Shown here one piece after another: positions 13,236 through 64,000 of a stretch of DNA of 64,000 bases (position 1 is its first letter; the number at the start of each line of letters is the position of its first letter). Below the pieces are notes generated by a model. The model was not told the origin of the DNA. It searched no databases and worked only from the letters and a program-made list of their open reading frames with translations. Where the stretch lies: the NCBI RefSeq assembly GCF_009914755.1, contig NC_060927.1. The stretch is one strand, 5' to 3'. Made by a program: the position numbers and the translations under genes. The DNA is from the human T2T-CHM13v2.0 reference genome, Homo sapiens.

Positions 13236-14288
13236 GAAACAAATCCATGAAATACAACAAAACAGAACCTCCTTAAAGCATAAATCTCATAGGACCTATA
13301 CAACAATAATACACGAAAAAAAAAAAAGGCAAGGTATTCAGGCAACAAATAGCACAATGAATAGAATAGTACCTCACCTCTCAATACTAACATTGAATGT
13401 AAATGGCCTAAATATTCCACTTAAAAGATACAGAATGGCAGAATGGATATGAATTCACCAACCAAGTTTCTGCTGTCTTCAGAAGACTCACCTAAACTCA
13501 CATTAGGACTCACACAAACTTAAGGTAAAGGGGCGGAAAAAAAACATTCCATGCAAATGGATACCAAAAGCGAGCAGGAGTAGCTATTCTTATAGCAGAC
13601 AAAACAAACTTTAAAGCAACAGCAGTTAAAAAAGACAAACAGGGACATTACATAATGATAAAAGGACTAGTCTAACAGGAAAATATCATAATTCTAAATA
13701 TATATGCACCTAACACTGGAGTTTCCAAATTTATAATACAATTGCTACTAGACCGAAGAAATGAGATAGACAGCAACACAATAATAGTGGGGGATTTCAA
13801 GACTGCACTGACAGTACTAGACAGGTCATCAAGACAGAAAGTCAACAAAGAAACAATAGACTTAAACTATAACCTAGAACAAATAGACTTAACAGATATT
13901 TACAGAACATTCTACCCAACAACTGCAGAATATATATTCTATTCATCAGCACATGGAACATTCTCCAAGATAGACCAGATGATAGGCCACAAAACAAGTC
14001 TCAGTAAACTTAAGAAAATCGAAATTATATCAAGCACTCTCTCAGATCACAGTGGAATAAAATTGGAAATCAACTCCAAAAGAAACCCTCAAAACCATGC
14101 AAATACATGGAAATTAAATAACCTGTTCCTGAATAATCGTTGGGTCAACAACGAAATCAAGATGGAAACTTAAAAGTTCTTTGACTGAACGATAATAGTG
14201 ACACAACCTATCAAAACCTCTGGGATACAGCAAGAGCAGTGCTAAGAGGAAAGTTCATGGCATTAAATGCTTACATCAAAAAGTCTGC

Positions 14289-42558: not shown

Positions 42559-43973
42559 GGGCAGAGGAAGCCCTGAGCTGACCACCAGAGGAGGGGGGCA
42601 CCAAGGCCACGGCAGTAGGCCAAGGAGCTGAGAGAAGGCCTGGAAAATAAGAAGAGAGTCCAAGTTAGGTGAGGTGTGTGTGGCTGCACCTACTGTATAT
42701 CTGGCCAGCAAGGGCCTAAGCGGGGCAAAGTGAGGTGTCTGTGCAGCAGCTGTAGCATTCATGGTGTGTGCTGACATGGCCAGAGCTGTGGAAAGAAAAC
42801 ATGGGCTTTGCAATCACACAGATGTGGATTCGAATGCTCTGCCTTGGGCAAGTCCCTGCACATCTTTAAGCCTCCTGTGTCTAAGGAGGAACATGGGTCC
42901 CACTGTGCAGGCCTGTGGTGAGGAATGAGGCAAGTGAAGCACCCAGCCTAGTGCCTGGCACATAGCAGGTCCTCAGTGAGCCCCCTCTGCAAAGCCCACC
43001 TCCACTGCAGGAATGCCTGGCAAAGGCCTTTGTCAGCAGGTGACTATCAAATTTACAAATGGGTCCTTCTGCAACCCTATTTTTATCTCAAGATAAAGTC
43101 CGACAACTTGCTGTGAGTGACCAAGGTTCCTAATGTCCACCCTGTCTTCTCTTTCTCATATAACTACAGGATTCTAATGGAACACGAGTGAACTACCTTT
43201 CCCAGCTTCTCCAGCAATAACGTGTGATCATATGACTAAGTTCTCTCTCCTGGAATGTGAGTGAAATGATGTCCACCCCTGTCAGGAGGGGCTTAAGAGA
43301 GTTACGGAGTCTCTGCCACATGGTGCTCAATCCATCATGGGCTTTTTTTTAACTTAATAGTTAAGTAAAAAGATCTCTAGTTTCTTTGCCAAGACTCAGA
43401 TTCTACTCTCTAAACTCTTGGTGAGCATATGAACTGTTCTCTCTGAAAAGTAATTTGACAATATCAATGGGAATTTTGAACATTCCACTACTAAAAATTA
43501 TAATTATGCTACAAACTCATATGTACAAAGGTACTTGTGAAAAAATTGTCATTGTAGCATCTTTTATAAAAGCAAAGTAAAAGAAAAAGTAGAAGAAAGC
43601 AAAGTACAATGTATCTCTATGCAATGGAATATTATGCAGCTATTGATTGGTATAAAGCAGACTTACATGTACTGATATGAAATGATAATCTCCAATATAT
43701 ATATATGTAAACACACACAAAATAGGCATATATACCTCTATTTCTGTTTTAATGACATATTAATATAATCATATTTAATAACTCACCAAAGTGAAAGATA
43801 TATATCACATTAGAATGGTTGTCTATGAGAGGAGGGAGGGAAATGGGAGTGTGGAATGGGGATAAATAAATGGATGGATGGTGTGTGGGTGGTGATGGTC
43901 AGATAGACAGGTAAATAGGCCTTCACAGACCAATGATGATCATTTTATATAAATATATATATATATACATATT

Positions 43974-44312
43974 CAGTCGTCTGTCAGTGTCCATGAGGGA
44001 TTGGTTCCAGGACCCTCCTCAGATACCAAAATCTACAGATGCTCAAATTGCTTATACAAAATGGTGTAGTATTTGCATATAACCTATACACATTCTCGCA
44101 CACACTCTAAATCATCTCTAGATTATTTATAATACCTAATACAATGTAAATGCTATAAAAATAGCTGTTATACTTAATTATTTAGGAATAATGACAAGAA
44201 AAAAACTCTGTACATGTTCAGTACAGAAGAAACTATCCTTTTTTTTTCAAATATTTTTGATCCGCAGTTTGTTGAATCTGTGGATGCAGATCCACAGATA
44301 TGGAGAGTCAAC
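43974..44312 (+). mobile_element. MER2 (Tigger family MITE)
   Basis: CAGTCGTC...GGATTGGTTCCAGGACCC...ATACCAAAATC; flanked by (TA)n. Confidence 0.8.
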
Positions 44313-44642
44313 ATATATATACACCCATACACACACATACATATGAAAGACTCATATTTGTTATAATTAGTTTTATAATGAATAAAATATGCTCATTTAT
44401 AATTCATATGTATGATTCACTTATGTATATTATTTCATAAGCATAGACTGTTTCTGGAAAGATAGACAAGAAGCTATTAGCAATGGCTGCCTCTGGGAAG
44501 TGAAAATAGAGATTACAGGACTTTTATTTTTCACTTTCTACCTCTCTGTACTATTCAAACTTCTTATCATCATCTTCTATCACTTTTATTATTTTTTAAA
44601 ATAAAACATAGAATTTCAGTTCTTGCAGAAGTGAGAATCTGA

Positions 44643-45024
<382 letters not shown>

Positions 45025-45034
45025 CATGATTCAG

Positions 45035-45084
45035 ACTTTAAAAAGTGCAATAGAAAGTGCACTTTAAAAAGTGCAATAGAAAGT
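45035..45084 (+). repeat. 26-bp tandem duplication ACTTTAAAAAGTGCAATAGAAAGT(GC)
   Basis: Direct reading, two copies. Confidence 0.9.
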
Positions 45085-45138
45085 CAAAGAAGTCATCAGC
45101 TTCAGAAGGAAGAAGGCCTTTAAAAAATCGTAGGACTA

Positions 45139-45435
<297 letters not shown>

Positions 45436-45455
45436 CTAGGTTGGCCAAAAAAAAA

Positions 45456-45486
<31 letters not shown>

Positions 45487-45739
45487 AGGGCCTCCAGGAA
45501 CAGCCCCTGACCCCACTGAGCCACTGTCTTCTTCTGTGAAAGGCAGTGACAGGCCAGCCCTGCCTACCTCACAGGGTGCTATGAGACTTGGAGAAGATGC
45601 AAGGGGAAGGTGCTCAGTGATAACAATGGCAGCTCTGCAGGGAGTGTCACCCTCTGTGCTAGATACAAACTCCTAATACAAACCTACAAACAGGTATTAT
45701 TATTCTCATTTTACAAATAAGGAAACTGGTTTCTGGAGT

Positions 45740-46142
45740 GGTTCAGTGGCATCCCCCAAAGGTCATATGTTGAAAACTCAATCCCCAATGCAGCAGTGTT
45801 GAGAGATGGGACATTTAAGAGGTGATTAAGTCACGAAGACTCTGCCCTCATGAATGGATGAATGTCATTATTGTAGGAGTGGGTTAGTTATCACAGGAGT
45901 AGGTTCCTGATGAAAGGAGGAATTCAGTCCCCTTCCCTCTTGCTCTTATGCTTTCTTGACCTTCCACTCTCCACCAGGAGATGATGCAGCAGGAAGGCCC
46001 TTGCCCAATATTGGACTTCAAGCTTGATATTGGACTTGATATTGGACTTAAGCTTCCAGAACTGTGAGAAATACATTTCTTTTCTTTATAAATTACCCAG
46101 TCTGTGTCATTCTGTTGCAACAGTACAAAATGGATGAAAACA
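45740..46142 (+). mobile_element. MSTD-like MaLR solo LTR
   Basis: CCCCAAAGGTCATATGTTGAAAACTCAATCCCCAATG...ATAAATTACCCAGTC. Confidence 0.7.
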
Positions 46143-46316
46143 GGAGACCAGATTTGAAGTGTAATTGTAGGTTCATCTGGCACCAAAGCTTATGGACTCT
46201 GAACCACTCAACATTGATTCTTGGGGCTATTCCTCCTAAAATATTGCTTTGATCAGATTATCATCCTTTATCCCTTAAACCTCCAATTCATCCATTTACT
46301 CACTCCTCATTTATAG

Positions 46317-46765
<449 letters not shown>

Positions 46766-48095
46766 ACATGATACTCACCATGCTTAGCTCCAAAGCTGCA
46801 ACTGTGCCACCAGAGCCTCAGAGACGACTACTCACAACAAGCTGTGCCTCGGAGCAACAGCAGGTTACCAGGCATGCTGTGGGCAAGGGTAATAAGACAC
46901 CTGCTTCCTGATGTCCCAGCTCTCAGGTGAGCTCACCTGAGAACTGCACTGTTTAACTATTTAAGCTTTGGCGTCAGATGTTTGCCAACAGTCCTCTCTC
47001 TAATAATAAAGTCAAGAACTCTCCATCAGCCACTCTCTCTCTCATCTCTCCTCCTACCTTTTTGAATGCTCTTCCTTAAACAGTGGCTATTCTTTCCCCT
47101 TTCTTTTATGACAGGGTGTGCCACTGCCCCCTTGATATTCTGCTATCCACCTGCAACCCATTTCTCCCTGCACGCTATCCCTAGGAATGAGCTCACAGCT
47201 TCAGCTACTATAGGCTTGCTCTAGGCTGAGCCTCAGTCACCCCCAAATCTCTTTCTCTCTAGCCCCTCGGTCTCTTGTGATCTTATACCCAACCATTCCA
47301 TACTGATAATGCCAGGAATTGCAAACCCAAGTTCCACCAGGGCCAGAAAAGTAACATTAAATGCACAAAATGTAGCAGATATGAAAGAAACCACAGTACA
47401 TGTGTGATGATAAATGGCAACTCATTCTCCATCTTATTGTCCAAGGTACAATAAGGCAGTGGTTCTCAAAGTGTGGTCTCTGGACCAGCAGCATCAGCAT
47501 CACCTGGGAATTTGTTAGAAATGCAGATCCCCAGACTTACTGATTTAGAACCACTAAATCTGTGGAGTGCTGGGCTAGGAAACATTAGGGATTGTGGCAA
47601 ACCTGAGAGTGCAGGCCCTGTTTAAGGTGGGAAACCACTATTGAGCTCCAGCCACAGGGGAATGGATTTTGTGTTCCTTATTGGCTAATTCCAAATACAC
47701 TGAGTGATATTCAAAGACTTTGATGAACTGCTTCCAAAAGTACCTCTCTAGCTGCATCTCCCATTTACCATATTACTTGCCTTCCACACTTTCACACTTC
47801 TGGGCTGTTTATTTTATGTATAGACACTGTTTTTAAATGCTTTACAAAGAAGCACTCATCTATTTCTCAGGACAAGCCCTTGAGGAGGTACTATTATCAT
47901 CTAAGCCACAGAGAAATAAAGAAGCTTGCCCAAGATCCAGAGGCAAGATTCACACCCAGGCAGCCTGGCTCCAGTCTGGGCTAGCCTCTATTCTATGCTG
48001 CCTCTTGGTATAGATGGTCCTTTGCCACCTCCTTTTGTTCCAATTAAAGGTTGACACATGTTTCAAGGCCCTGCTTATAAATGATTACCACCATA

Positions 48096-49076
48096 TGGGA
48101 GTGTAAATTAGTTCAACCATTATGGAAGACAGTGTGGCGATTCCTCAAGGATCTAGAACCAGAAATACAAATTGACCCAGCAATCCCATTACTGTGTAGG
48201 TACCCAAAGGATTATAAATCATTCTACTATAAAGATACATGCACACATATATTTATTGCAGCACTATTAACAATAGCCAAGACTTGGAACTAACCCAAAT
48301 GCCCATTAATGATAGACTGGATGAAGAAAATGTGGCACATATACACCATGGAATACTCTGCAGCCATAAAAAATAATGAGTTCATGTACTTTGCAGAGAC
48401 ATGGATGAAGCTGGAAATCATCATTCTCAGCAAATTAACACAGGAACAGAAAACCAAACACAGCATGTTCTCACTCATAAGTGGGAGTTGAACAATGAGA
48501 ACACACAGACACAGGGAGGGGAATATCACACACCGGGCTTCCTGATATCCCAGCTCTCAGGGCTTAAAACCTAGATGACGGGTTCATAGGTGCAGCAAAA
48601 CACCATGCATGTATACCTATGTAACAAACATGCACGTTCTGCACATGTATCCCAGAACTTAAAGTAAAATTAAAAATAAAATAAATAGATCCCATTTGTC
48701 TATTTCGGCTTTTGTTACCATTGCTTTTGGTGTTTTAGTCATGAAGTCCTTGCTGGAAACCATCATTCTGAGCAAACTATCACAAGGACAGAAAATCAAA
48801 CACGGCCTGTTCTCACTCATAGGTGGGAATTGAACAATGAGAACACTTGGACACAGGAAGGGGAACATCACACACCAGGGCCTGTTGGGGGATGGAGGGC
48901 TGGGGGAGGGATAGCATTAGGAGAAATACCTAATGTAAATGACGAGTTAATGGGTACAGTAAACCCACATGGCACATGTATACATAATGTAACAAACCTG
49001 CACGTTGTGCACAGGTACCCTAGAACTTAAAGTATAATAATAAAAAAAAACTTCCCACAATAAAATAAATAAATAA
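48096..49076 (+). mobile_element. Two nested L1PA 3' ends: a twin-primed copy inserted into the tail of an older copy
   Basis: First 3' end at 48096-48685; inverted ORF2 piece at about 48686-48750; second 3' end at about 48751-49050; outer TSD ATAAATGATTA(C/T)CACCATA at 48077-48095 and 49077-49095. Confidence 0.85.
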
Positions 49077-50286
49077 ATAAATGATTATCACCATAAATCC
49101 CTGCTACGCTCACAGTCAAAGTTCCCTGCCCCTCCCCTGGGCTTCCAGAGCGCACAGCATACACTTTGTCTGTTAGGGTGTCTCTGCAACATTCATATCT
49201 CCATCCCATCAACAAATGATTCCTGAGGCCCTACTAAGTGCCAGGCATCATGACTGGCACTCGGGATCAATGTTGACCTGGGCAACTATCCCTGCCGTTG
49301 TTAATAAAAATAGTTCACATTTCTGGAATTCTATTATTTTCCATACACAGTGCTAAGGCTTTACATGTATTATCCCACTTAATTCTCACAACAACCTATT
49401 ATGCAGATGAAGAAACAGAGTGTGATCAAAGAGAGGAAACAGAGAGAGGAAACAAACAGGGGAAATGACTTTCCCACAGTCACACAACTAGTAAGTGATA
49501 GTGTCTGGCTCCAAAGTTTTTTTCTCCAGAGAGACAGAAAAATACACAGAAATTAACCCACAGAGCGGCAAGTGCCAAGACAGGAGCTGGGAAAGGGTTC
49601 TCTGGGAACACCAAGGAAGGGCCCATACCAGGATGCTTCTGTCTCCTTCCTCCCCCACTCCCCTGGCTGTGAACTTTACAGGGGCTGAGACCATGGCTTA
49701 TTCGTATCTGCTGTATCCCAGTCCCCAGCCCATTACCTGGCACCCAGATTGCTACTGAACGGAGCAAAATTGTTGAAATCTCAGCATATCTGACTTAAAA
49801 ATTCTGTTATTCTTAGGGTCTTGAAGTAATGGGGCTATGGACTGCCAAGAGTTAGTACAAAGAGTAAAAGCTGAGTAGGAATCCTTCATTCGGACTCATT
49901 GGAGGGAAATGCCACTCAGACTTAGTAAATGCTTTATTTGTTGACCATCTGCATCCAGAGTTTAATCCCATGGGCAAGTAATAAGAGCTGAGAGTGCAGG
50001 AGTCCCGGCAGGTGGAATCAGGCATATCAATGAGAAGTCGCAGTGCCCACGCTGACTGTCAAGATATGGCCTCAGTGTTGGAGCTTGCTTCCTGAGCAGC
50101 CCTGAAACCTTCATACTTACACTCTGAGCATACTCCATAAACACAGAAGGTGGCTGCCCCACTCCCAACTACACAGAATTAGGGGTCTGAGTTCATGAGG
50201 TTTTAATGTACCTCAAAAGTATTACTCATGTCTTTTTCTAGAACCCTAAGGGTCCAATTCTTAGATGTCCTAGAGCTCTGGCATTA

Positions 50287-50670
<384 letters not shown>

Positions 50671-51252
50671 TTATCAAACATCTATATGTCAGGCACTGTG
50701 CCTGCCTTTAAAAGTAGTAATTCTAAACTCATATAGCCTTGTAGATGGCTATGGTTCGTCTCATCTCACAGATGTAGAAACTGAGGCTCAGAGAAGCTAA
50801 GATCCCTGCTCACTCAGCTACTAAATAATGAAGCCAAGATTCAAACCAAGTTCTATCTGACTCCAGAGCTTTTGAATTATGCCAAACTCTTAATAATTAT
50901 GATAATTATAATGATATACAAATTATTTTCCATTATGGAAATTACAATACCTGAGTTTTCTTGATCAAAGTGCAAGCGCTGACAGAGTTTACAGCAAATC
51001 ACCACAGGGTTAGTGTTGGGGATTCTAAATTCTCCCTGTATTTCAGCAGGGCTTGTCTGAACCCGACTCAGCTCCACAGCTTGCGTCCTGATTAGGATAG
51101 GCGGACAAAAAGCCAAATGAGAGTGTTGCATGTTACCTGGAAACCATACACCCCAGGGGCAAGGACATCGTGCTTTTTTCAGACGAATTGTGAGCAGACT
51201 GCTTTTCCCACATCTGGGAATAAAAACACAAGGAAGAAATGACTCACTGTCA

Positions 51253-51545
<293 letters not shown>

Positions 51546-52306
51546 AGAGAAGAAATGACTCACTGTCATTAGGAAAACTGAAGCTGTTTAATCACCTTTA
51601 GATATATTGACAGGGTTTTGGGAAACTTCCCATTCCTAGACCAATATTATGAATAAGGGACCCAAAAGAATATTTGTGCTAACATTCAAACTTGCTTCAT
51701 TGTTAAGAGTTGGTTTCTGCCTGGGACAATCCCACACCCATCTAGAATATAGAAAACCCATCTACCACCCTTGCTTTGCACACTCCCAGTGACAAGTTGT
51801 TCACCACCTCACAAGACAGCCATCCCACTGTGAAACAATCCCTGGAGACTTTATGGTTCTTCTAAAACCGGCCCACCAATAATCTGTCAAAAATAACTCC
51901 CTCAAAATTGGCCAAACACCTTATTTTTTAACATAAACTGACAGCTAGACAACAACAACAACATCACCACTTTACTGTCTCTTCTGCTTCCTCAAGAATG
52001 CAGTCAAGAGGAGAACTTGAGGGAGCCAAGTTTCCAAGGTGGCTGCCAGGCAATCATTTACAAACCTGCCCTGGCTCCCAAGCTAACTTCAGCAGTGCCC
52101 ACTGGGGGAGCTCAGGCGTGTCATTAATGCTAATTGTTGTGGCTGCCAAGGAAACCTTCACACAGTTTGCAAACAGGCTATGCACACACAGTATGCAAGG
52201 GAGCTCCAGAGACCTCAACAGAGATGACAGGGACCTGGGAGCTCTCCTGAAGTACTGCCACTGCAGAGCTTAGCCTTATTCTCAGATTCCATGGTGTTCT
52301 CCTTTT

Positions 52307-52906
52307 CCACTCTTCCCTGACCCTCATGGGGGCTGCAGCGACTCCTAGAACCTTCAAGCAGCGAGACAAAGGTCCCCTCAACCGGGCACAGCGCTCTCCT
52401 TACACCTGGCCTCCTATTCCCAGCAACTTTAAGGAGATATTTTTAAGTGGCCATGGTTTTATCAAAAGCCTATTAAGTTTTTGCCACAAACGGATTTTAT
52501 TTAAAATAAAAATAGGGGTAGGTATTTGACTGATGTCTCTTGGGAGTGTTTTAGAGAAGAGGAATGAATACTGACATGTCCTATCTTCCCAGATGCAGAA
52601 TTGTAAAACAAACAAACATAATTGCTTTTCACATGTAAAAGAAAACTGGCTTAGAACATACTAGCGTTTTCTTTGCCATGAAGGAGTTCACCTTCAGTGA
52701 CTAAGCCAGAACTACTAGAGCTGCCAGGCCTAGGGACAGGAGACATTGCCAGTGCTTAGCCAGGCTGGCCAGGACTAACCATCTCTGCAAGGAGTCCACA
52801 AGAAGCCTCAGGGCAGCCTTTCCCTGCTCCTATCAATTTGAGTTGAGCAAAAAACCTTTGACCAAATATCAGCTCCATGGCACAACCCACAGTTATGGTG
52901 CCCACA
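52307..52906 (+). repeat. Left arm of ~600-bp inverted repeat (in DZIP1L intron 1)
   Basis: Reverse complement of 54747-55343; 22 substitutions and 2 indels by hand alignment; mirrored ORFs 52326+/55121- and 52400-/55035+. Confidence 0.97.
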
Positions 52907-53599
52907 TGAACTCAGGTTTCTGTTCCCAACCTGAAGCATACAACTTCATGAGGTATTTTATCAAGTTAGATAGTATCAAAAAATATTCCCAGATGAGGGA
53001 GGTGTCTGACCAAGACAGTCAGAAGGCCCCTTATCAGCCACTAGACTGGAGGATCAGCCTTCCCTAAGCAGGATTGTTCTCACTGGCCAGTCCTCACATC
53101 CGGGAGGGGGAGGAGAGGTGCTAGGGGCTGCAACTGAGAAGGGAGAGATCACCCACCCTATCTGCAGATGAGGGTGTGAGAAGCCAAGTCAGAACACCCC
53201 ATACTTCCCAGGCCTCTCTCCAAAGTCCTGTTAGAAATCGAATTCCAGGAGACCAGGCAGGGGCAGCCTAGGCCCTGGGCCCCTAGGAAGTGCTCCGTGA
53301 ACTAGGCCCTGCCCAGGCAGCCTCGGACCCCCTCCTCTGCCCTGCCTCCTGATCCCTGTCCTGCACTGAGCAGGTCTTCGGTGGACTTTATGCGCAGCCA
53401 CCTCAGGATGAAAATACCACGTCTGCCTCCTGCTGAGGTCCAGCCCAGGAAAGGAAGAAGGGGAACGAAAGATGCCAATGCGATTGCTTTTAAATCACCT
53501 CATTACTAAAAGAATCCTCCTTTACCTACGGCACTCAGATCATCAAGCCCTCCCAAATCACTTTTCTTTTTTCAAAAAGTAAAAACCCAAGGCCGTCTT

Positions 53600-54480
53600 C
53601 CCAGTGAAGCCGAGTCTTGGGGCATCCCGTCATTCGTCCCCCGCGCACGGGTCCTTCCCTCCCTGGGCGCCGCAGTTCGGAGCAGGCCGAGGGGGCCGGG
53701 CTGCAGGGCCGCGCCGGGCCAGAAGGGCGCGCCCTGGGCAGCGCGGACGCACGCAGCCGGCTCCTCCCGCGCCCCGCTGCACCCCGGCAGGGAGTTCGCC
53801 CCCGCTAATGTTTAACCTCCCGAATCGCTGATCCCTCGGACTGCAGCCAAGCTACCCACCCGCCCCGCTCCCGGGACGAATTCCTGGCATAGTTTTCCCG
53901 CGCGGCCCGCTCACCGTGGGGTCTCCTGGAGCCGGGGACGGCGGGAAGACGTCTCGAGGTGGCGGCTCCCATACTCGCCCCACGTCCCGCCTCCAGACTT
54001 GCTCCACCGCCCCAGACAGCCCAGAGATGGTTCCCGGAATGCTCACCGCCCGCCGTTCCCGGGATGCTTCCCCAGCCCCACGCAGTCCGGGCGCTCTCTG
54101 CGGCGGAGGCAGAGCCTGCCCGGCCCACTCCAGTGCCGCCAACCTGCGGGACCGCGGACAGAGAGCTCCTCGGTGCGTCGGTCAGCTCGTGGCTTGGGGT
54201 CTCTGGTGCCTCCAGCTCCTACTACAGCCGCCCCGCCCCACCTCAAGAAGAGGTGGAGCCTCTCCCGGCCCCTCTCGGACGAGCTATTTTTAGGTCTGTA
54301 ACGGATGGGGGAAGGCGGGAATGCCACGTTTAATCCGTTAGTAAAATCCAGGATCCAAGTGAATGGCTTCCTGGCCTTGCTGAGAGGCTGGACTTGCCCC
54401 GGTTTCCCCACACCCTGCCTCCGGTACAATCGATAGCCTGCTGTGCAGGGGCGGCCGCACCCCCCGGGCAGATAGCCCTG
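53600..54480. promoter_or_regulatory. DZIP1L: CpG island / DZIP1L promoter with GC boxes
   Basis: Only CpG-dense region in the window; CCGCCC motifs; lies 5' of exon 2 on the minus strand. Confidence 0.88.
53915..54200 (-). other. DZIP1L: Probable non-coding exon 1 of DZIP1L (TSS approximate)
   Basis: Donor ACG|GTGAGC ending at 53915, with a second candidate GCG|GTGAGC ending at 54047, inside the CpG island. Confidence 0.65.
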
Positions 54481-54746
54481 CCCACCCTCCTAAAGGGACC
54501 GTCCTGGTTTCTTCCTGACCGGATCCCAAGCTAGGAGAGTTCTTTGGGTGTGCCCCAGGTCTGATCAGACAGACAGCAGCCACCTTCCCTCCGCAGCCCC
54601 CACCCACCACCCCCTACCCTCCCAACCTGCTGGTTTGCCCTGGGGATGCCAACTTGGAAACCCAGGACTGAAAAACTTATTTTTTCTCCTGATATTAGTC
54701 CCTGATCTCTTCCCATAGTAGTAGTTGCTTTGCTGAGATTCCGTTT

Positions 54747-55343
54747 TGTGGGCACCGTAACTGTGAGTTGTGCCATAGAGCTGATATTTGGTCAAAATGT
54801 TTGTTGCTCAACTCAAATTGATAGGAGCAGGGAAAGGCTGCCCTGAGGCTTCTTGTGGACTCCTTGCAGAGATGGTTAGTCCTGGCCAGCCTGGCTAAGC
54901 ACTGGCAATGTCTCCTGTCCCTAGGCCCGGCAACTCTAGTAGTTCTGGCTTAGTCACTGAAGGTGAACTCCTTCATGGCAAAGAAAACGCTAGTATGTTC
55001 TAAGCCAGTTTTCTTTCACATGTGAAAAGCAGTTATGTTTGTTTTACAATTCTGCATCTGGGAAGATAGGACATGTCAGTATTCATTCCTCTTCTCTAGA
55101 GCACTCACAAGGGGCATCAGTCAAATACCTACCCCTATTTTTATTTTAAATAAAATCCTTTTGTGGCAAAAACTTAATAGGCATTTGATAAAACCATGGC
55201 CACTTAAAAATATCTCCTTAAAGTTGCTGGGAATAGGAGGCCAGGTGTAAGGAGAGCTCTGCGCCTGGTGGAGGGAACCTCTGTCTCGCTGCTTGAAGGT
55301 TCTAGGAGTCGCTGCAGCCCCCATGAGGGTCAGGGAAGAGTGG
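54747..55343 (-). repeat. Right arm of ~600-bp inverted repeat (upstream of the DZIP1L TSS)
   Basis: Reverse complement of 52307-52906. Confidence 0.97.
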
Positions 55344-55499
55344 GAAAAAAGCTCCTTTTCACACACACTCTCTCTCTCTCCACTCCGCAACTCTTCTCCC
55401 TCCCTCTTTCTCTTTTTTCCATTTCAAAGGCTTTCGTCCCACCACAATCTCAATCTGCCAAGCTCTACATTTTGAGGCAGCCAAAGCAAATGTGTATGG

Positions 55500-56583
55500 G
55501 AACAAGCGTTGTCAAGGACTTGCAGGGAAACTGGAACTCCTGTGCATTGCTGGTGGGAATGTAAAATGGTACCATTACTGTGGATACAGAATGGTAGTTC
55601 CTCAAAAAATTAAACAAGAATTGCCAAAAGATCCAACAATTCCATTTCTGGGTATATACCCCAAAGAACTGAAAGCAGGGATTCAAACAGATATTTGTAT
55701 ACTCATGTTCATAATAGCATTATTCACAATAGCCAAAAAGTGGAAACAATTCAAATGTCTATCGACAGATTAATGGATAAGCAAAATGTGGTATATCCAT
55801 ACAATGTAATATTAACTTTAAAAGGGAAGGAAATTCTGACACATGAATGAACCTTGAAAACTGTCTTAGTCTATTCAGGCTGCTATAACAAAATACCATT
55901 GAGTGGGTAGCATATAAACAATAGAAGTTTTTTTCTTACAGTTCTGGAGGCTGGGAAGTCCAAAATCAAGACATTGGCAGATTCGGTGCCTGGTGAGGGC
56001 CTGTTTCCTGGTTGATAGGCTGTCATCTTCTCACTGCACCCTCACTTAGTAGAAGGGGGCTGGCTAGCTCTCTGGGGTTTCTTTCATAAGGGCACTAGTC
56101 CCAATTATGAGGACTCTACCTTCATGACCTAACCACCCCCCAAAGGCCCCACCTCCCAATACCGTCACCTTGGGGGTCAGGATTTCAACCCCATTTTGCA
56201 GGGACACAAACATTCAGATCAAGGCAAAAGCATTATGCTAAATGAAATAAGCTGGACACAAAAGGACAAATATTGTATTATTCCACTTATACCTGGAAAT
56301 ATTGTATGATTCCACTTGTACCTAGAATAGTCCATTCACAGAGACAGAAAGTAGAATAGTGGTTACCAGTGGCTGGAGGAGGGGGAATGAGTAGTTATTG
56401 ATTCATGAGTACAGATTCTCAGTTTGGGAATGATGAAAAAGTTCCAGAGATAAATGGTAGTGATGGTTGCACAATAATGTGAATGTACTTAATGCCACTG
56501 AATTGTACACTTGAAAATGGTTACGATGGCAAATTTTACATTATGTACAGTTTATCACAATTTTTTAAACATTAAAAAAAAAT
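55500..56583 (+). mobile_element. L1MB-like 3' end, interrupted by an MLT1A LTR
   Basis: ORF2 C-terminal remnant in ORF 55492..55773; L1MB-type 3'UTR (GATGAAAAAGTTC, GTGAATGTACTTAATGCCACTGAATTGTACAC). Confidence 0.8.
55862..56226 (-). mobile_element. MLT1A0-like MaLR solo LTR
   Basis: TGTCTTAGTC...GCTGCTATAACAAAATACC...GGGACACAAACATTCAG. Confidence 0.8.
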
Positions 56584-62850: not shown

Positions 62851-63465
62851 TTATTTGTTACCTGGACCCAGCTCCCCAGTCACTGACCCCTCTGGGCCTT
62901 TAATCAGGTCCCTGTAAGTCCTGGGACAGTGCTTGCGATAGAGATTTTCCACCAGTGTGTTGCTTCCTCTAATCACAGCCCGCCCCTCCTGGTTCATGTG
63001 GTTCCACAAATGCAGGGCATAAGAGACATTGAAGCTTGGCTCTGTATCCCACACTTCATAGTAGCGCCTCCACTCTCGATAGGAGATGGGGTAAAATCTT
63101 TGGGGGTGTAAGAAGGATATGTTCAGACACCTGAGGTCGCTCACCTCCTGGAAGTCTTCAAGTTTACACCATACCCTCAACATCCTTGTCATCAACTCAG
63201 GGCCTTGGTTGCCCCAAATGGCTGAATTATAGTGTTCAACAAAGTTTTCCATGCATTCCCACAAAAAGGGGTGGTGGGGGAGGAACCCAAATATTCCATT
63301 ACTAGAGTACCGAGAAGCCTGCGCAGCCAAAAAGTTCTCCTCAGGGATGGGCCTGATGGAGATGACATCGGTGTCCATGTAGATGCCACCGTATTTCCAG
63401 ATGATGGCCAGGCGGGATGCATCCGAGCTGATGTGGAGCCAGTTTCTCTCTGCGCTGGCGTTGAT
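62851..63465 (-). CDS. A4GNT: A4GNT last coding exon (alpha-1,4-N-acetylglucosaminyltransferase, GT32): INASAERNW...ELGPGNK*
   Basis: ORF 62851..63483; SDASRL...KYGGIYMDTD (DXD motif), WGNQGP, HLWN; CTGCAG acceptor just before 63465; 204 aa + TAA. Confidence 0.96.
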   Translation of the reverse strand: MNASAERNWLHISSDASRLAIIWKYGGIYMDTDVISIRPIPEENFLAAQASRYSSNGIFGFLPHHPFLWECMENFVEHYNSAIWGNQGPELMTRMLRVWCKLEDFQEVSDLRCLNISFLHPQRFYPISYREWRRYYEVWDTEPSFNVSYALHLWNHMNQEGRAVIRGSNTLVENLYRKHCPRTYRDLIKGPEGSVTGELGPGNK

Positions 63466-64000
63466 CTGCAGGAGCAGGTGCAAATCAGCCCCAAGTAGCC
63501 AGGGGAAGAGGGAGGGGCATCACAGCAGGAGGCCAGGCCCAGAGAGGCTGGGGAGGGGTTAAAGAAGCCAGCTTCCCAAAATCCTATTTGCCACAGCCCG
63601 ATTTTGCAAGTTTACCAAACTTACCTCACTCTAAAATTTTTCATTTAAGTAAAAAGTTTGCAGCAATCAGTATCAATGGGAAAGTTTTAGCAGCTTTTAA
63701 AGATTTCATGAAATGGTTTTTTTAAAAAAACATTAAAGCATTGGAAAGATAAAGAAGAAATCCAGAAAAGATTTCACTATGCACTGTATGAGTCATTCTT
63801 CAACGTGGGTGTACATAAACTACAAATATGTAACTGTAGAGGAAGAACCAAATAAAGCCCTTAAAATGCTAACAACTGACAATGAAAAAAATCAGTATGT
63901 CTGCTATTTGAAAAATTGATAAAAAAATCTTAAAATGCATACCTTTGCTCATGTATTAATTCCTTTATTATTAAAGGAATTAATTTATTGAGGGCCTATT

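What the first reader, a model, noticed from the sequence alone, without database searches (positions are those of the whole stretch)
52307..55343. DZIP1L promoter and exon 1 boxed in by a ~600-bp non-TE inverted repeat: candidate invertible promoter cassette
Seen: arms 52307-52906 and 54747-55343 are reverse complements (~96%; 22 substitutions and 2 indels by hand). They match no Alu, L1, LTR or MER family I recognise. They enclose a 1,840-bp spacer that carries the whole CpG island, the probable TSS and exon 1. Established: intrachromatid recombination between inverted repeats inverts the spacer (e.g. the FLNA/EMD inverted repeats), and biallelic DZIP1L loss causes autosomal recessive polycystic kidney disease. 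Inference: one crossover would turn exon 1 away from the gene body and toward A4GNT, giving a copy-neutral OFF or rewired allele. Both breakpoints would sit in near-identical sequence, so exome and most short-read calling would miss it. It could be a recurrent polymorphic, somatic or evolutionary switch.
Basis: partly seen in the sequence, partly recalled or inferred. Interest (0 to 1): 0.85.

Follow-up and report, generated by a model that had tools for sequence, protein, structure and literature searches.

The report
Inverted duplication bracketing the DZIP1L promoter
A real, one-of-a-kind pair of ~600-base inverted copies brackets the DZIP1L promoter and first exon, but nothing found so far shows that the piece between them ever flips, so it is best read as an old fixed duplication.

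Summary
Arms 52303-52906 and 54747-55347 are reverse complements with 23 substitutions and 2 indels: 96.2% of 600 aligned bases, 95.4% with gaps. They enclose a 1,840-base single-copy spacer. It holds the whole CpG island (about 53500-54300) and DZIP1L exon 1.

The arms are not a dispersed repeat. The whole 3.1-Gb assembly holds only these two copies, also when one arm is searched in three pieces. A control repeat gave 7,865 candidates.

The "invertible cassette" reading has no support. A 2026 catalogue of 612 candidate repeat-flanked inversions merges 1,528 calls from 195 people with older predictions. It has no entry near this locus. A five-dataset gene-disruption survey does not name DZIP1L.

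The geometry can invert in principle: HsInv0061 has 654-base repeats around 1,674 bases. The layout mirrors the F8 intron-1 inversion. Here the arms are about 4% diverged and the longest perfect run is 124 bases.

Best reading: an old, fixed, locus-specific inverted duplication and a weak latent recombination substrate. Rare null alleles are not excluded. Interest is low to moderate.

The parts
52303..52906 (.). Left arm of the inverted repeat (604 bases). It lies in DZIP1L intron 1.
   Evidence: Only two genome copies. Both flanks are single-copy.
54747..55347 (.). Right arm of the inverted repeat (601 bases). It begins 552 bases upstream of the DZIP1L transcription start.
   Evidence: The inner flank is single-copy. 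The outer flank is unique until a dispersed repeat starts near 55501.
52907..54746 (.). Single-copy spacer of 1,840 bases. This is the segment that a crossover between the arms would invert.
   Evidence: for the limits; 1 place in the whole genome.
53500..54300 (.). CpG island of the DZIP1L promoter.
   Evidence: the seven 200-base windows starting at 53500-54100 have GC 0.56-0.78 and observed/expected CpG 0.70-1.01. One search shows the GC profile.
53915..54195 (-). DZIP1L exon 1 (non-coding, NM_173543.3), with its transcription start at 54195 and its splice donor just below 53915.
   Evidence: Hub annotation table. The GTGAGC donor is seen on the minus strand at 53909-53914.

Best explanation
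This is a locus-specific inverted duplication of about 600 bases, too short to count as a segmental duplication. It arose once in the primate lineage. One copy now sits in DZIP1L intron 1 and the other about 550 bases upstream of the transcription start, so the pair happens to bracket the CpG-island promoter and non-coding exon 1.

Both copies have since drifted apart roughly neutrally, to about 3.9% divergence. This genome carries the orientation that lets exon 1 splice to exon 2. I infer that this orientation is fixed or nearly fixed in humans.

Mechanistically the pair is a latent substrate for intrachromatid non-allelic homologous recombination. A crossover inside the arms would flip the 1.84-kb spacer and uncouple promoter and exon 1 from exons 2-16, most likely giving a null or hypomorphic allele. 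The short length, the roughly 4% mismatch and the 124-base maximum of uninterrupted identity should make such events rare. It is not a regulated switch.

Shown: the structure, the copy number, the contents of the spacer, and the absence from inversion catalogues.
Inferred: the single origin, the age, fixation, a low recombination rate, and the loss-of-function consequence.
For: Structure: searches show the arms with sharp ends on both sides and 23 substitutions plus 2 indels.

Copy number: searches find 2 of 2 first-look candidates in 3.1 Gb, both being the arms. This held for the whole arm and for each of 3 pieces at E <= 10. The control shows the same tool returns 7,865 candidates, with scored hits at 67-85% identity, for a true dispersed repeat next door.

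Surroundings: three of the four flanks and the spacer are single-copy; the right outer flank is unique for about 150 bases, until a dispersed repeat starts near 55501. There is no larger palindrome around the pair.

No other gene content: 0 Rfam matches, 0 tRNAs, and no ORF of 80 or more codons lying inside an arm.

No sign of recent homogenisation: the differences are spread over all six 100-base bins (7, 2, 5, 2, 2, 5). A perfect run of 124 or more arises in 7% of 20,000 random placements.

Orientation in this genome: the exon 1 donor faces exon 2 (plus the hub table).

Population catalogues:
- There is no entry for this locus among the 612 candidate repeat-flanked inversions.
- In that study only 6 of 319 (1.9%) inverted duplication pairs without a prior inversion call were polymorphic in 54 people.
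- DZIP1L is not in the held supplements of the five-dataset gene-disruption survey.
Against: Known inversions with similar geometry exist. HsInv0061 has 654/656-base repeats around 1,674 inverted bases. HsInv0040 has 755-base repeats around 3,589 bases. Even repeats of 140-420 bases are listed as polymorphic. So size alone does not forbid inversion.

My population evidence is indirect.
- I saw catalogues, not reads or assemblies.
- The catalogue discarded 622 candidate regions before testing.
- One of its two supplement files, and the HGSVC3 file, were cut when stored.
- The original Porubsky 2022 tables were not held.
- My hg38 coordinates are estimates from recalled gene positions, although searched a 60-kb span around them.

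About 200 long-read or Strand-seq individuals cannot exclude alleles below roughly 0.5%.

No non-human genome could be searched, so the single origin, the age and the constancy of orientation across species are untested.
Confidence: 0.72

Rival explanations
1. The pair mediates real but rare, possibly recurrent, recombination inversions in living humans. These would give copy-neutral null DZIP1L alleles that exome and short-read tests miss. This is an autosomal, weaker analogue of the F8 intron-1 inversion.
For: The architecture matches F8 Inv1: one copy in intron 1 and one inverted copy upstream (passages seen in PMC7098248). HsInv0061 and HsInv0040 show that repeats of 650-750 bases around 1.7-3.6 kb have produced inversions by homologous recombination, each of unique origin. 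Short inserts cannot span a 600-base arm (inference).
Against: There is no call at this locus in the merged catalogue or the gene-disruption survey. The arms are 96.2% identical with a longest perfect run of 124 bases. The F8 repeat, at 1,041 bases, is longer and by my recollection nearly identical. Similar-sized non-TE pairs that were tested (HsInv0062 at 668 bases, HsInv0064 at 520, HsInv0066 at 753, HsInv0032 at 721) were not polymorphic in 54 people.
Confidence: 0.15
2. The repeat is a consequence of an inversion rather than a cause. An ancient inversion made by staggered breaks would duplicate about 600 bases in inverted orientation at the two ends of the flipped segment. This is the model proposed for Drosophila inversion breakpoints, which I recall and did not look up.
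For: The homology ends sharply at all four junctions. There is no target-site duplication and no transposable-element signature. The copies are unique to this locus.
Against: It would require the promoter and exon 1 of a conserved ciliary gene to have faced the wrong way before the event. No outgroup sequence was available to test this.
Confidence: 0.05
3. The arms are two copies of a dispersed element (a solo LTR pair, or the long terminal inverted repeats of a DNA transposon).
For: In reverse orientation each arm begins TG and its complement ends CA, and each contains an AATAAA. These are weak, LTR-like hints recalled from memory.
Against: Only 2 genome-wide places match, for the whole arm and for each third. 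The positive control found thousands of candidates. There is no target-site duplication. RepeatMasker/Dfam was not available, so a very old family below about 65-70% identity cannot be excluded. Such an origin would not explain two copies that are 96% alike.
Confidence: 0.03
4. The mirror-image arms are themselves functional, for example as paired regulatory or boundary elements. They would also make the divergent transcripts from the CpG island carry the same 600-base sequence on both sides.
For: By geometry, transcripts leaving the island in either direction would read the same arm sequence (inference).
Against: There is no structured-RNA match. A recalled CTCF consensus has no match at 1 mismatch or fewer in the arms or the spacer. 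RefSeq functional elements lie only in the spacer (hub table). The substitutions look unconstrained: 17 transitions and 6 transversions, spread along the arm.
Confidence: 0.03

Closest known systems
F8 intron-1 inversion (int1h-1 / int1h-2), a recurrent cause of severe haemophilia A
   Same: One repeat copy lies in intron 1 and an inverted copy lies upstream of the gene. Intrachromosomal recombination separates promoter and exon 1 from the rest of the gene (PMC7098248, passages).
   Different: The F8 repeats are 1,041 bases long and 140 kb apart, and by my recollection almost identical. Here the arms are 601-604 bases, 96.2% identical and 1.84 kb apart. F8 inversions are documented in 2-5% of severe cases. 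None is documented for DZIP1L.
HsInv0061 and HsInv0040, validated human inversions with sub-kilobase inverted repeats
   Same: The geometry is almost the same: 654/656-base repeats around 1,674 bases, and 755-base repeats around 3,589 bases. Both are classed as made by homologous recombination and of unique origin.
   Different: Their repeats are annotated as transposable elements, and both orientations have been observed in people. The DZIP1L arms are not a dispersed element and only one orientation is on record.
HsInv0062, HsInv0064, HsInv0066, HsInv0032: short repeat-flanked candidates (typed 'IR' or 'SD') that proved monomorphic
   Same: They have repeats of 520-753 bases, typed 'IR' or 'SD' rather than SINE/LINE/LTR/TEs, flanking 0.26-4.1 kb. 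No second orientation was found in 54 people.
   Different: Those were at least predicted as inversions by an earlier study. The DZIP1L pair was never called. None of them was checked here for promoter content.
Bacterial invertible promoters (fimS, hin type)
   Same: A promoter lies between inverted repeats, and its orientation would decide whether the gene is expressed.
   Different: Those use short repeats and a dedicated site-specific recombinase, and they switch at high, regulated rates (recalled). Nothing of that kind is present or expected here.

Membership tests
Polymorphic inversion mediated by inverted repeats (InvFEST / HsInv type) | Inverted repeats of high identity at both breakpoints | tested here: met
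   The arms are 604 and 601 bases long and 96.2% identical. This is within the 140-base to 190-kb range of the catalogue.
Polymorphic inversion mediated by inverted repeats (InvFEST / HsInv type) | Both orientations observed among individuals | tested here: not met
   There is no entry in the 612-region catalogue within the searched 60-kb span (format checked). DZIP1L is absent from the held supplements of the five-dataset survey. This is indirect: no reads or assemblies were examined, so rare alleles are not excluded.
Segmental duplication (UCSC definition as quoted, plus the usual 1-kb minimum, recalled) | Length of at least 1 kb | tested here: not met
   The arms are 604 and 601 bases. This also explains why the pair was not in the catalogue's set of 319 untested duplication pairs.
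Segmental duplication (UCSC definition as quoted, plus the usual 1-kb minimum, recalled) | At least 90% identity, and not made entirely of transposable elements | tested here: met
   Identity is 95.4-96.2%. There are only two genome copies.
Dispersed transposable element (LTR pair or TIR transposon) | Many related copies elsewhere in the genome | tested here: not met
   2 places in 3.1 Gb match, against 7,865 candidates for the control repeat. Dfam/RepeatMasker was not available.
Dispersed transposable element (LTR pair or TIR transposon) | Target-site duplication flanking the element or the cassette | tested here: not met
   Inspection of the four junctions shows no direct repeat.
F8 int1h-type pathogenic promoter / exon-1 inversion | One copy in intron 1 and an inverted copy upstream of the gene | tested here: met
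   The left arm is inside intron 1 (42640-53914). The right arm begins 552 bases upstream of the start at 54195 (and the hub table).
F8 int1h-type pathogenic promoter / exon-1 inversion | Documented recurrent inversion in patients | tested here: not met
   8 papers hold both DZIP1L and 'inversion'. By title and abstract start, none concerns a rearrangement of this locus. 0 papers hold DZIP1L with 'inverted repeat'. Subscription journals are mostly not searched.
Site-specific invertible promoter (phase-variation switch) | A dedicated recombinase acting on short inverted sites | not testable with these tools
   No such system is known in human somatic or germ cells outside V(D)J recombination (recalled). 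Nothing in the locus suggests one: no ORF of 80 or more codons lies within the arms.

The most novel reading that the evidence does not exclude
The two arms occasionally recombine in the germline or in kidney cells. That would flip the DZIP1L promoter and exon 1 and create copy-neutral null alleles that exome and short-read sequencing cannot see. Such alleles would account for some unsolved recessive polycystic kidney disease cases carrying a single DZIP1L variant. The spacer might also differ in orientation among ape species.
Probability: 0.08. Interest if true: 0.6.

Novelty: new member of a known kind. Interest (0 to 1): 0.25.

Why it matters
DZIP1L loss causes a recessive polycystic kidney disease (OMIM 617570, as listed). 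A flip of the 1.84-kb promoter cassette would be balanced. Its breakpoints would lie in 96%-identical sequence, so routine testing would miss it. The F8 intron-1 inversion shows that this exact layout can matter clinically. If inverted alleles exist, a four-primer PCR or any long-read data set would find them at once.

If none exist, the locus is one more of the many short inverted pairs in the genome. One study counts 1,400-1,570 genes flanked by inverted pairs. It then has mainly bookkeeping value. It would also be an example that a promoter can sit between 600-base inverted copies for millions of years without flipping.

Tried and rejected
- Transposable-element origin: rejected by genome-wide copy number, with a positive control.
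- Larger palindrome or further inverted homology around the pair: none found.
- RNA genes or tRNAs duplicated in the arms, as in HsInv0278: none found.
- Coding potential in the arms: none. 4 ORFs of 80 or more codons overlap 52250-55400, and none lies within an arm.
- CTCF-like sites that an inverted pair would place in mirror orientation: a recalled consensus gave 3 window matches at 1 mismatch or fewer, none between 52000 and 56000. That count is not above chance.
- Clustering of differences as a sign of recent gene conversion: not significant (P = 0.07).
- Paralogues of the spacer: none.
- Earlier notes of this scan: not open.
- Porubsky 2022 (Cell): not held by DOI or PMC id.
- HGSVC3 supplement: its only numeric hit was an assembly statistic, and the file was cut.
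- Fernandez-Luna 2024: lists DZIP1L only at gene level, as 'flanked: yes, overlapped: no' in all three assemblies. This need not refer to this pair.
- Paper search to confirm hg38 coordinates: gave nothing usable.
- Comparison with other primates or mammals: impossible, because no eukaryotic genome other than the window's own is held.
Full report
**1. Observation**

- The repeat finder reports three abutting inverted pieces covering 52303-52906 and 54747-55347.
- BLAST of either arm against the window returns one 605-column inverted match: 95.37% identity, 23 mismatches, 2 gap openings, 961 bits.
- A global alignment gives 23 substitutions (17 transitions, 6 transversions, 6 in a CpG context), a 4-base indel and a 1-base indel. 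That is 96.2% identity over 600 aligned bases, or a Jukes-Cantor distance of 0.039.
- Homology stops abruptly at all four ends.
- The spacer 52907-54746 is 1,840 bases.
- In a self-comparison of 44-64 kb this is the only inverted pair above 92% identity. All the other pairs were 30-310 bases long at 67-93% identity, and there is no larger palindrome.

**2. What the pair encloses**

Windows with GC >= 0.55 and observed/expected CpG >= 0.6 run from 53500 to about 54300 (GC profile). The hub's RefSeq table places DZIP1L exon 1 at 53915-54195 on the minus strand. The sequence shows a GTGAGC donor directly below it on that strand. Coding sequence starts only in exon 2, so exon 1 is non-coding. The left arm is therefore in intron 1, and the right arm starts 552 bases upstream of the transcription start. 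The RefSeq enhancer and silencer features all lie in the spacer (hub table).

**3. What the arms are**

A search of the whole 3.1-Gb assembly with the left arm finds two places, the arms themselves: 2 candidates, 2 scored. The same holds for each of three ~210-base pieces at E <= 10.

As a control, the masked repeat at 55634-55902 gave 7,865 first-look candidates. The 40 scored hits elsewhere in the genome were at 67-85% identity. So the tool does see dispersed families.

- Three of the four flanks are single-copy.
- The right outer flank is unique for about 150 bases, until a dispersed repeat starts near 55501.
- The spacer is single-copy.
- I saw no target-site duplication at any junction.
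- There are no Rfam matches at E <= 1 and no tRNAs.
- No ORF of 80 or more codons lies inside an arm.
- A recalled CTCF consensus has no match in the arms or the spacer.

The arms are thus a two-copy, locus-specific inverted duplication. At about 600 bases it is below the usual 1-kb threshold for a segmental duplication. RepeatMasker/Dfam was not available, so an origin of the duplicated segment in some very old repeat cannot be excluded. That would not change the reading.

**4. Age and exchange between the arms**

The differences fall in all six 100-base bins (7, 2, 5, 2, 2, 5). The longest perfect run is 124 bases (52727-52850), followed by runs of 83, 74 and 62. A run of 124 or more occurs in 7% of 20,000 random placements of 25 differences. 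So there is no significant sign of a recent gene-conversion tract.

A distance of 0.039 between two copies lies between the human-orangutan and human-macaque divergences as I recall them. If the copies evolved independently, this puts the duplication roughly in the ape stem, some 15-25 million years ago. It would be older if conversion occurred. This is inference, because no other primate genome could be searched here.

**5. Does the spacer flip?**

Geometry. A crossover within the arms would invert 52907-54746. The start site would move to about 53458 and point to the plus strand, away from exons 2-16. It would point toward the 3' end of A4GNT, which is on the minus strand. The result would be antisense transcription, not rewiring. 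In this genome exon 1 faces exon 2, the orientation that the spliced mRNA requires.

Catalogue evidence. I read sections 4, 7, 10 and 13 of Moreira-Pinhal et al., Genome Res 2026 (PMC13629690), and searched its supplements.
- The authors merged 58 validated inversions, 1,528 candidate calls from five long-read, Strand-seq or optical-mapping studies of 195 people, InvFEST paired-end predictions and 319 inverted duplication pairs into 612 regions.
- They found 155 of the 612 to be polymorphic in 54 people.
- Only 6 of the 319 pairs without a prior call (1.9%) were polymorphic.
- Their tables give plain hg38 numbers.
- Searches for numbers beginning 138113 to 138117, and more widely 13808 to 13813, found no inversion entry. 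The only hits were a gene-model coordinate and a deletion label.

Coordinate caveat. My hg38 positions (arms near chr3:138.1136-138.1170 Mb) are estimates. They come from recalled positions of DZIP1L, A4GNT and CLDN18, which agree on the offset to within about 400 bases. The wide search allows for that uncertainty.

Second survey. I read passages of a study in Eur J Hum Genet 2025 (PMC12229492). It intersected inversions from gnomAD v4, DGV, 1KGP, Ebert 2021 and Porubsky 2022 with genes, and it tabulates gene-disrupting and intragenic events. Its two held supplement files contain neither DZIP1L nor the coordinates.

Other literature checks.
- The HGSVC3 supplement gave nothing relevant but was cut when stored.
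- Full-text searches found 0 papers with DZIP1L and 'inverted repeat'.
- 8 papers hold DZIP1L and 'inversion'. By title and abstract start, none is about this locus.

Weaknesses of this evidence. I saw no reads or assemblies. 622 candidate regions were discarded before testing. The original Porubsky tables were not held. About 200 individuals cannot exclude alleles below roughly half a percent.

**6. Can such a pair flip at all?**

Yes. The first part of the catalogue's Table S1 (70 rows) lists as polymorphic:
- HsInv0061: repeats of 654/656 bases, 1,674 bases inverted.
- HsInv0040: repeats of 755 bases, 3,589 bases inverted.
- Several with repeats of 140-420 bases.

Of the 18 rows in that part with repeats under 1 kb, 8 are marked polymorphic. 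All 18 had been selected because someone had already predicted or validated an inversion there, so this is not a base rate for an uncalled pair.

Four short candidates typed 'IR' or 'SD' rather than as transposable elements were not polymorphic: HsInv0062 (668 bases), HsInv0064 (520), HsInv0066 (753) and HsInv0032 (721).

In Giner-Delgado et al. 2019 (PMC6748972, passages), HsInv0040 and HsInv0061 are two of only three inversions among 24 made by homologous recombination whose haplotypes indicate a single origin. So short repeats recombine, but rarely.

From recalled knowledge, mammalian homologous recombination drops sharply below about 200 bases of uninterrupted identity and with a few percent mismatch. 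Both conditions apply here.

**7. Closest known system**

The layout is that of the F8 intron-1 inversion. That has a 1,041-base copy in intron 1 and an inverted copy 140 kb away outside the gene. Recombination between them removes promoter and exon 1 from the gene and causes 2-5% of severe haemophilia A (PMC7098248, passages).

The DZIP1L pair shares the layout. It is shorter, about 4% diverged and 1.84 kb apart, and it has no patient record. It is not a bacterial-type invertible promoter, because there is no recombinase and no short recombination sites.

Fernandez-Luna et al. 2024 (PMC11794170; abstract, section 8 and supplement seen) mapped all inverted pairs of at least 200 bases and 80% identity. 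They list DZIP1L at gene level as 'flanked' in GRCh37, GRCh38 and T2T-CHM13. That row need not refer to this pair. The pair itself is probably present in their genome-wide maps, which I could not see.

**8. Verdict**

Best reading (about 0.72): an old, fixed, locus-specific inverted duplication that happens to bracket the DZIP1L promoter. It is a weak latent recombination substrate.

Main rival (about 0.15): rare inverted null alleles exist.

Minor rivals: a footprint of an ancient staggered-break inversion, a transposable-element origin, and functional mirror elements.

It is a new member of a known kind. Interest is low to moderate, because the decisive test is trivial with public long-read data and could matter for diagnosis of a rare kidney disease.

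Noticed in passing
window 55360-55380: A short compound (CA)n(CT)n microsatellite lies 13 bases outside the outer end of the right arm. The left arm has no counterpart. It might mark the junction of the duplication event.
   Followed up: no
window 55501-55902: A dispersed repeat (853 and 7,865 first-look candidates; scored hits mostly 77-87% identical, one at 67%) starts about 150 bases beyond the right arm. It also matches 48096-48355 at 67% in direct orientation.
   Followed up: partly
window 46917-46946: A 30-base near-perfect palindrome, 93% self-complementary, lies in DZIP1L intron 1.
   Followed up: no
window 63955-63984: A 30-base AT-rich near-perfect palindrome, 93% self-complementary, lies just beyond the annotated A4GNT exon that ends at 63465.
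   Followed up: no
window 48410-49049: Two adjacent direct copies of about 280 bases at 75% identity lie inside a masked repeat block.
   Followed up: no
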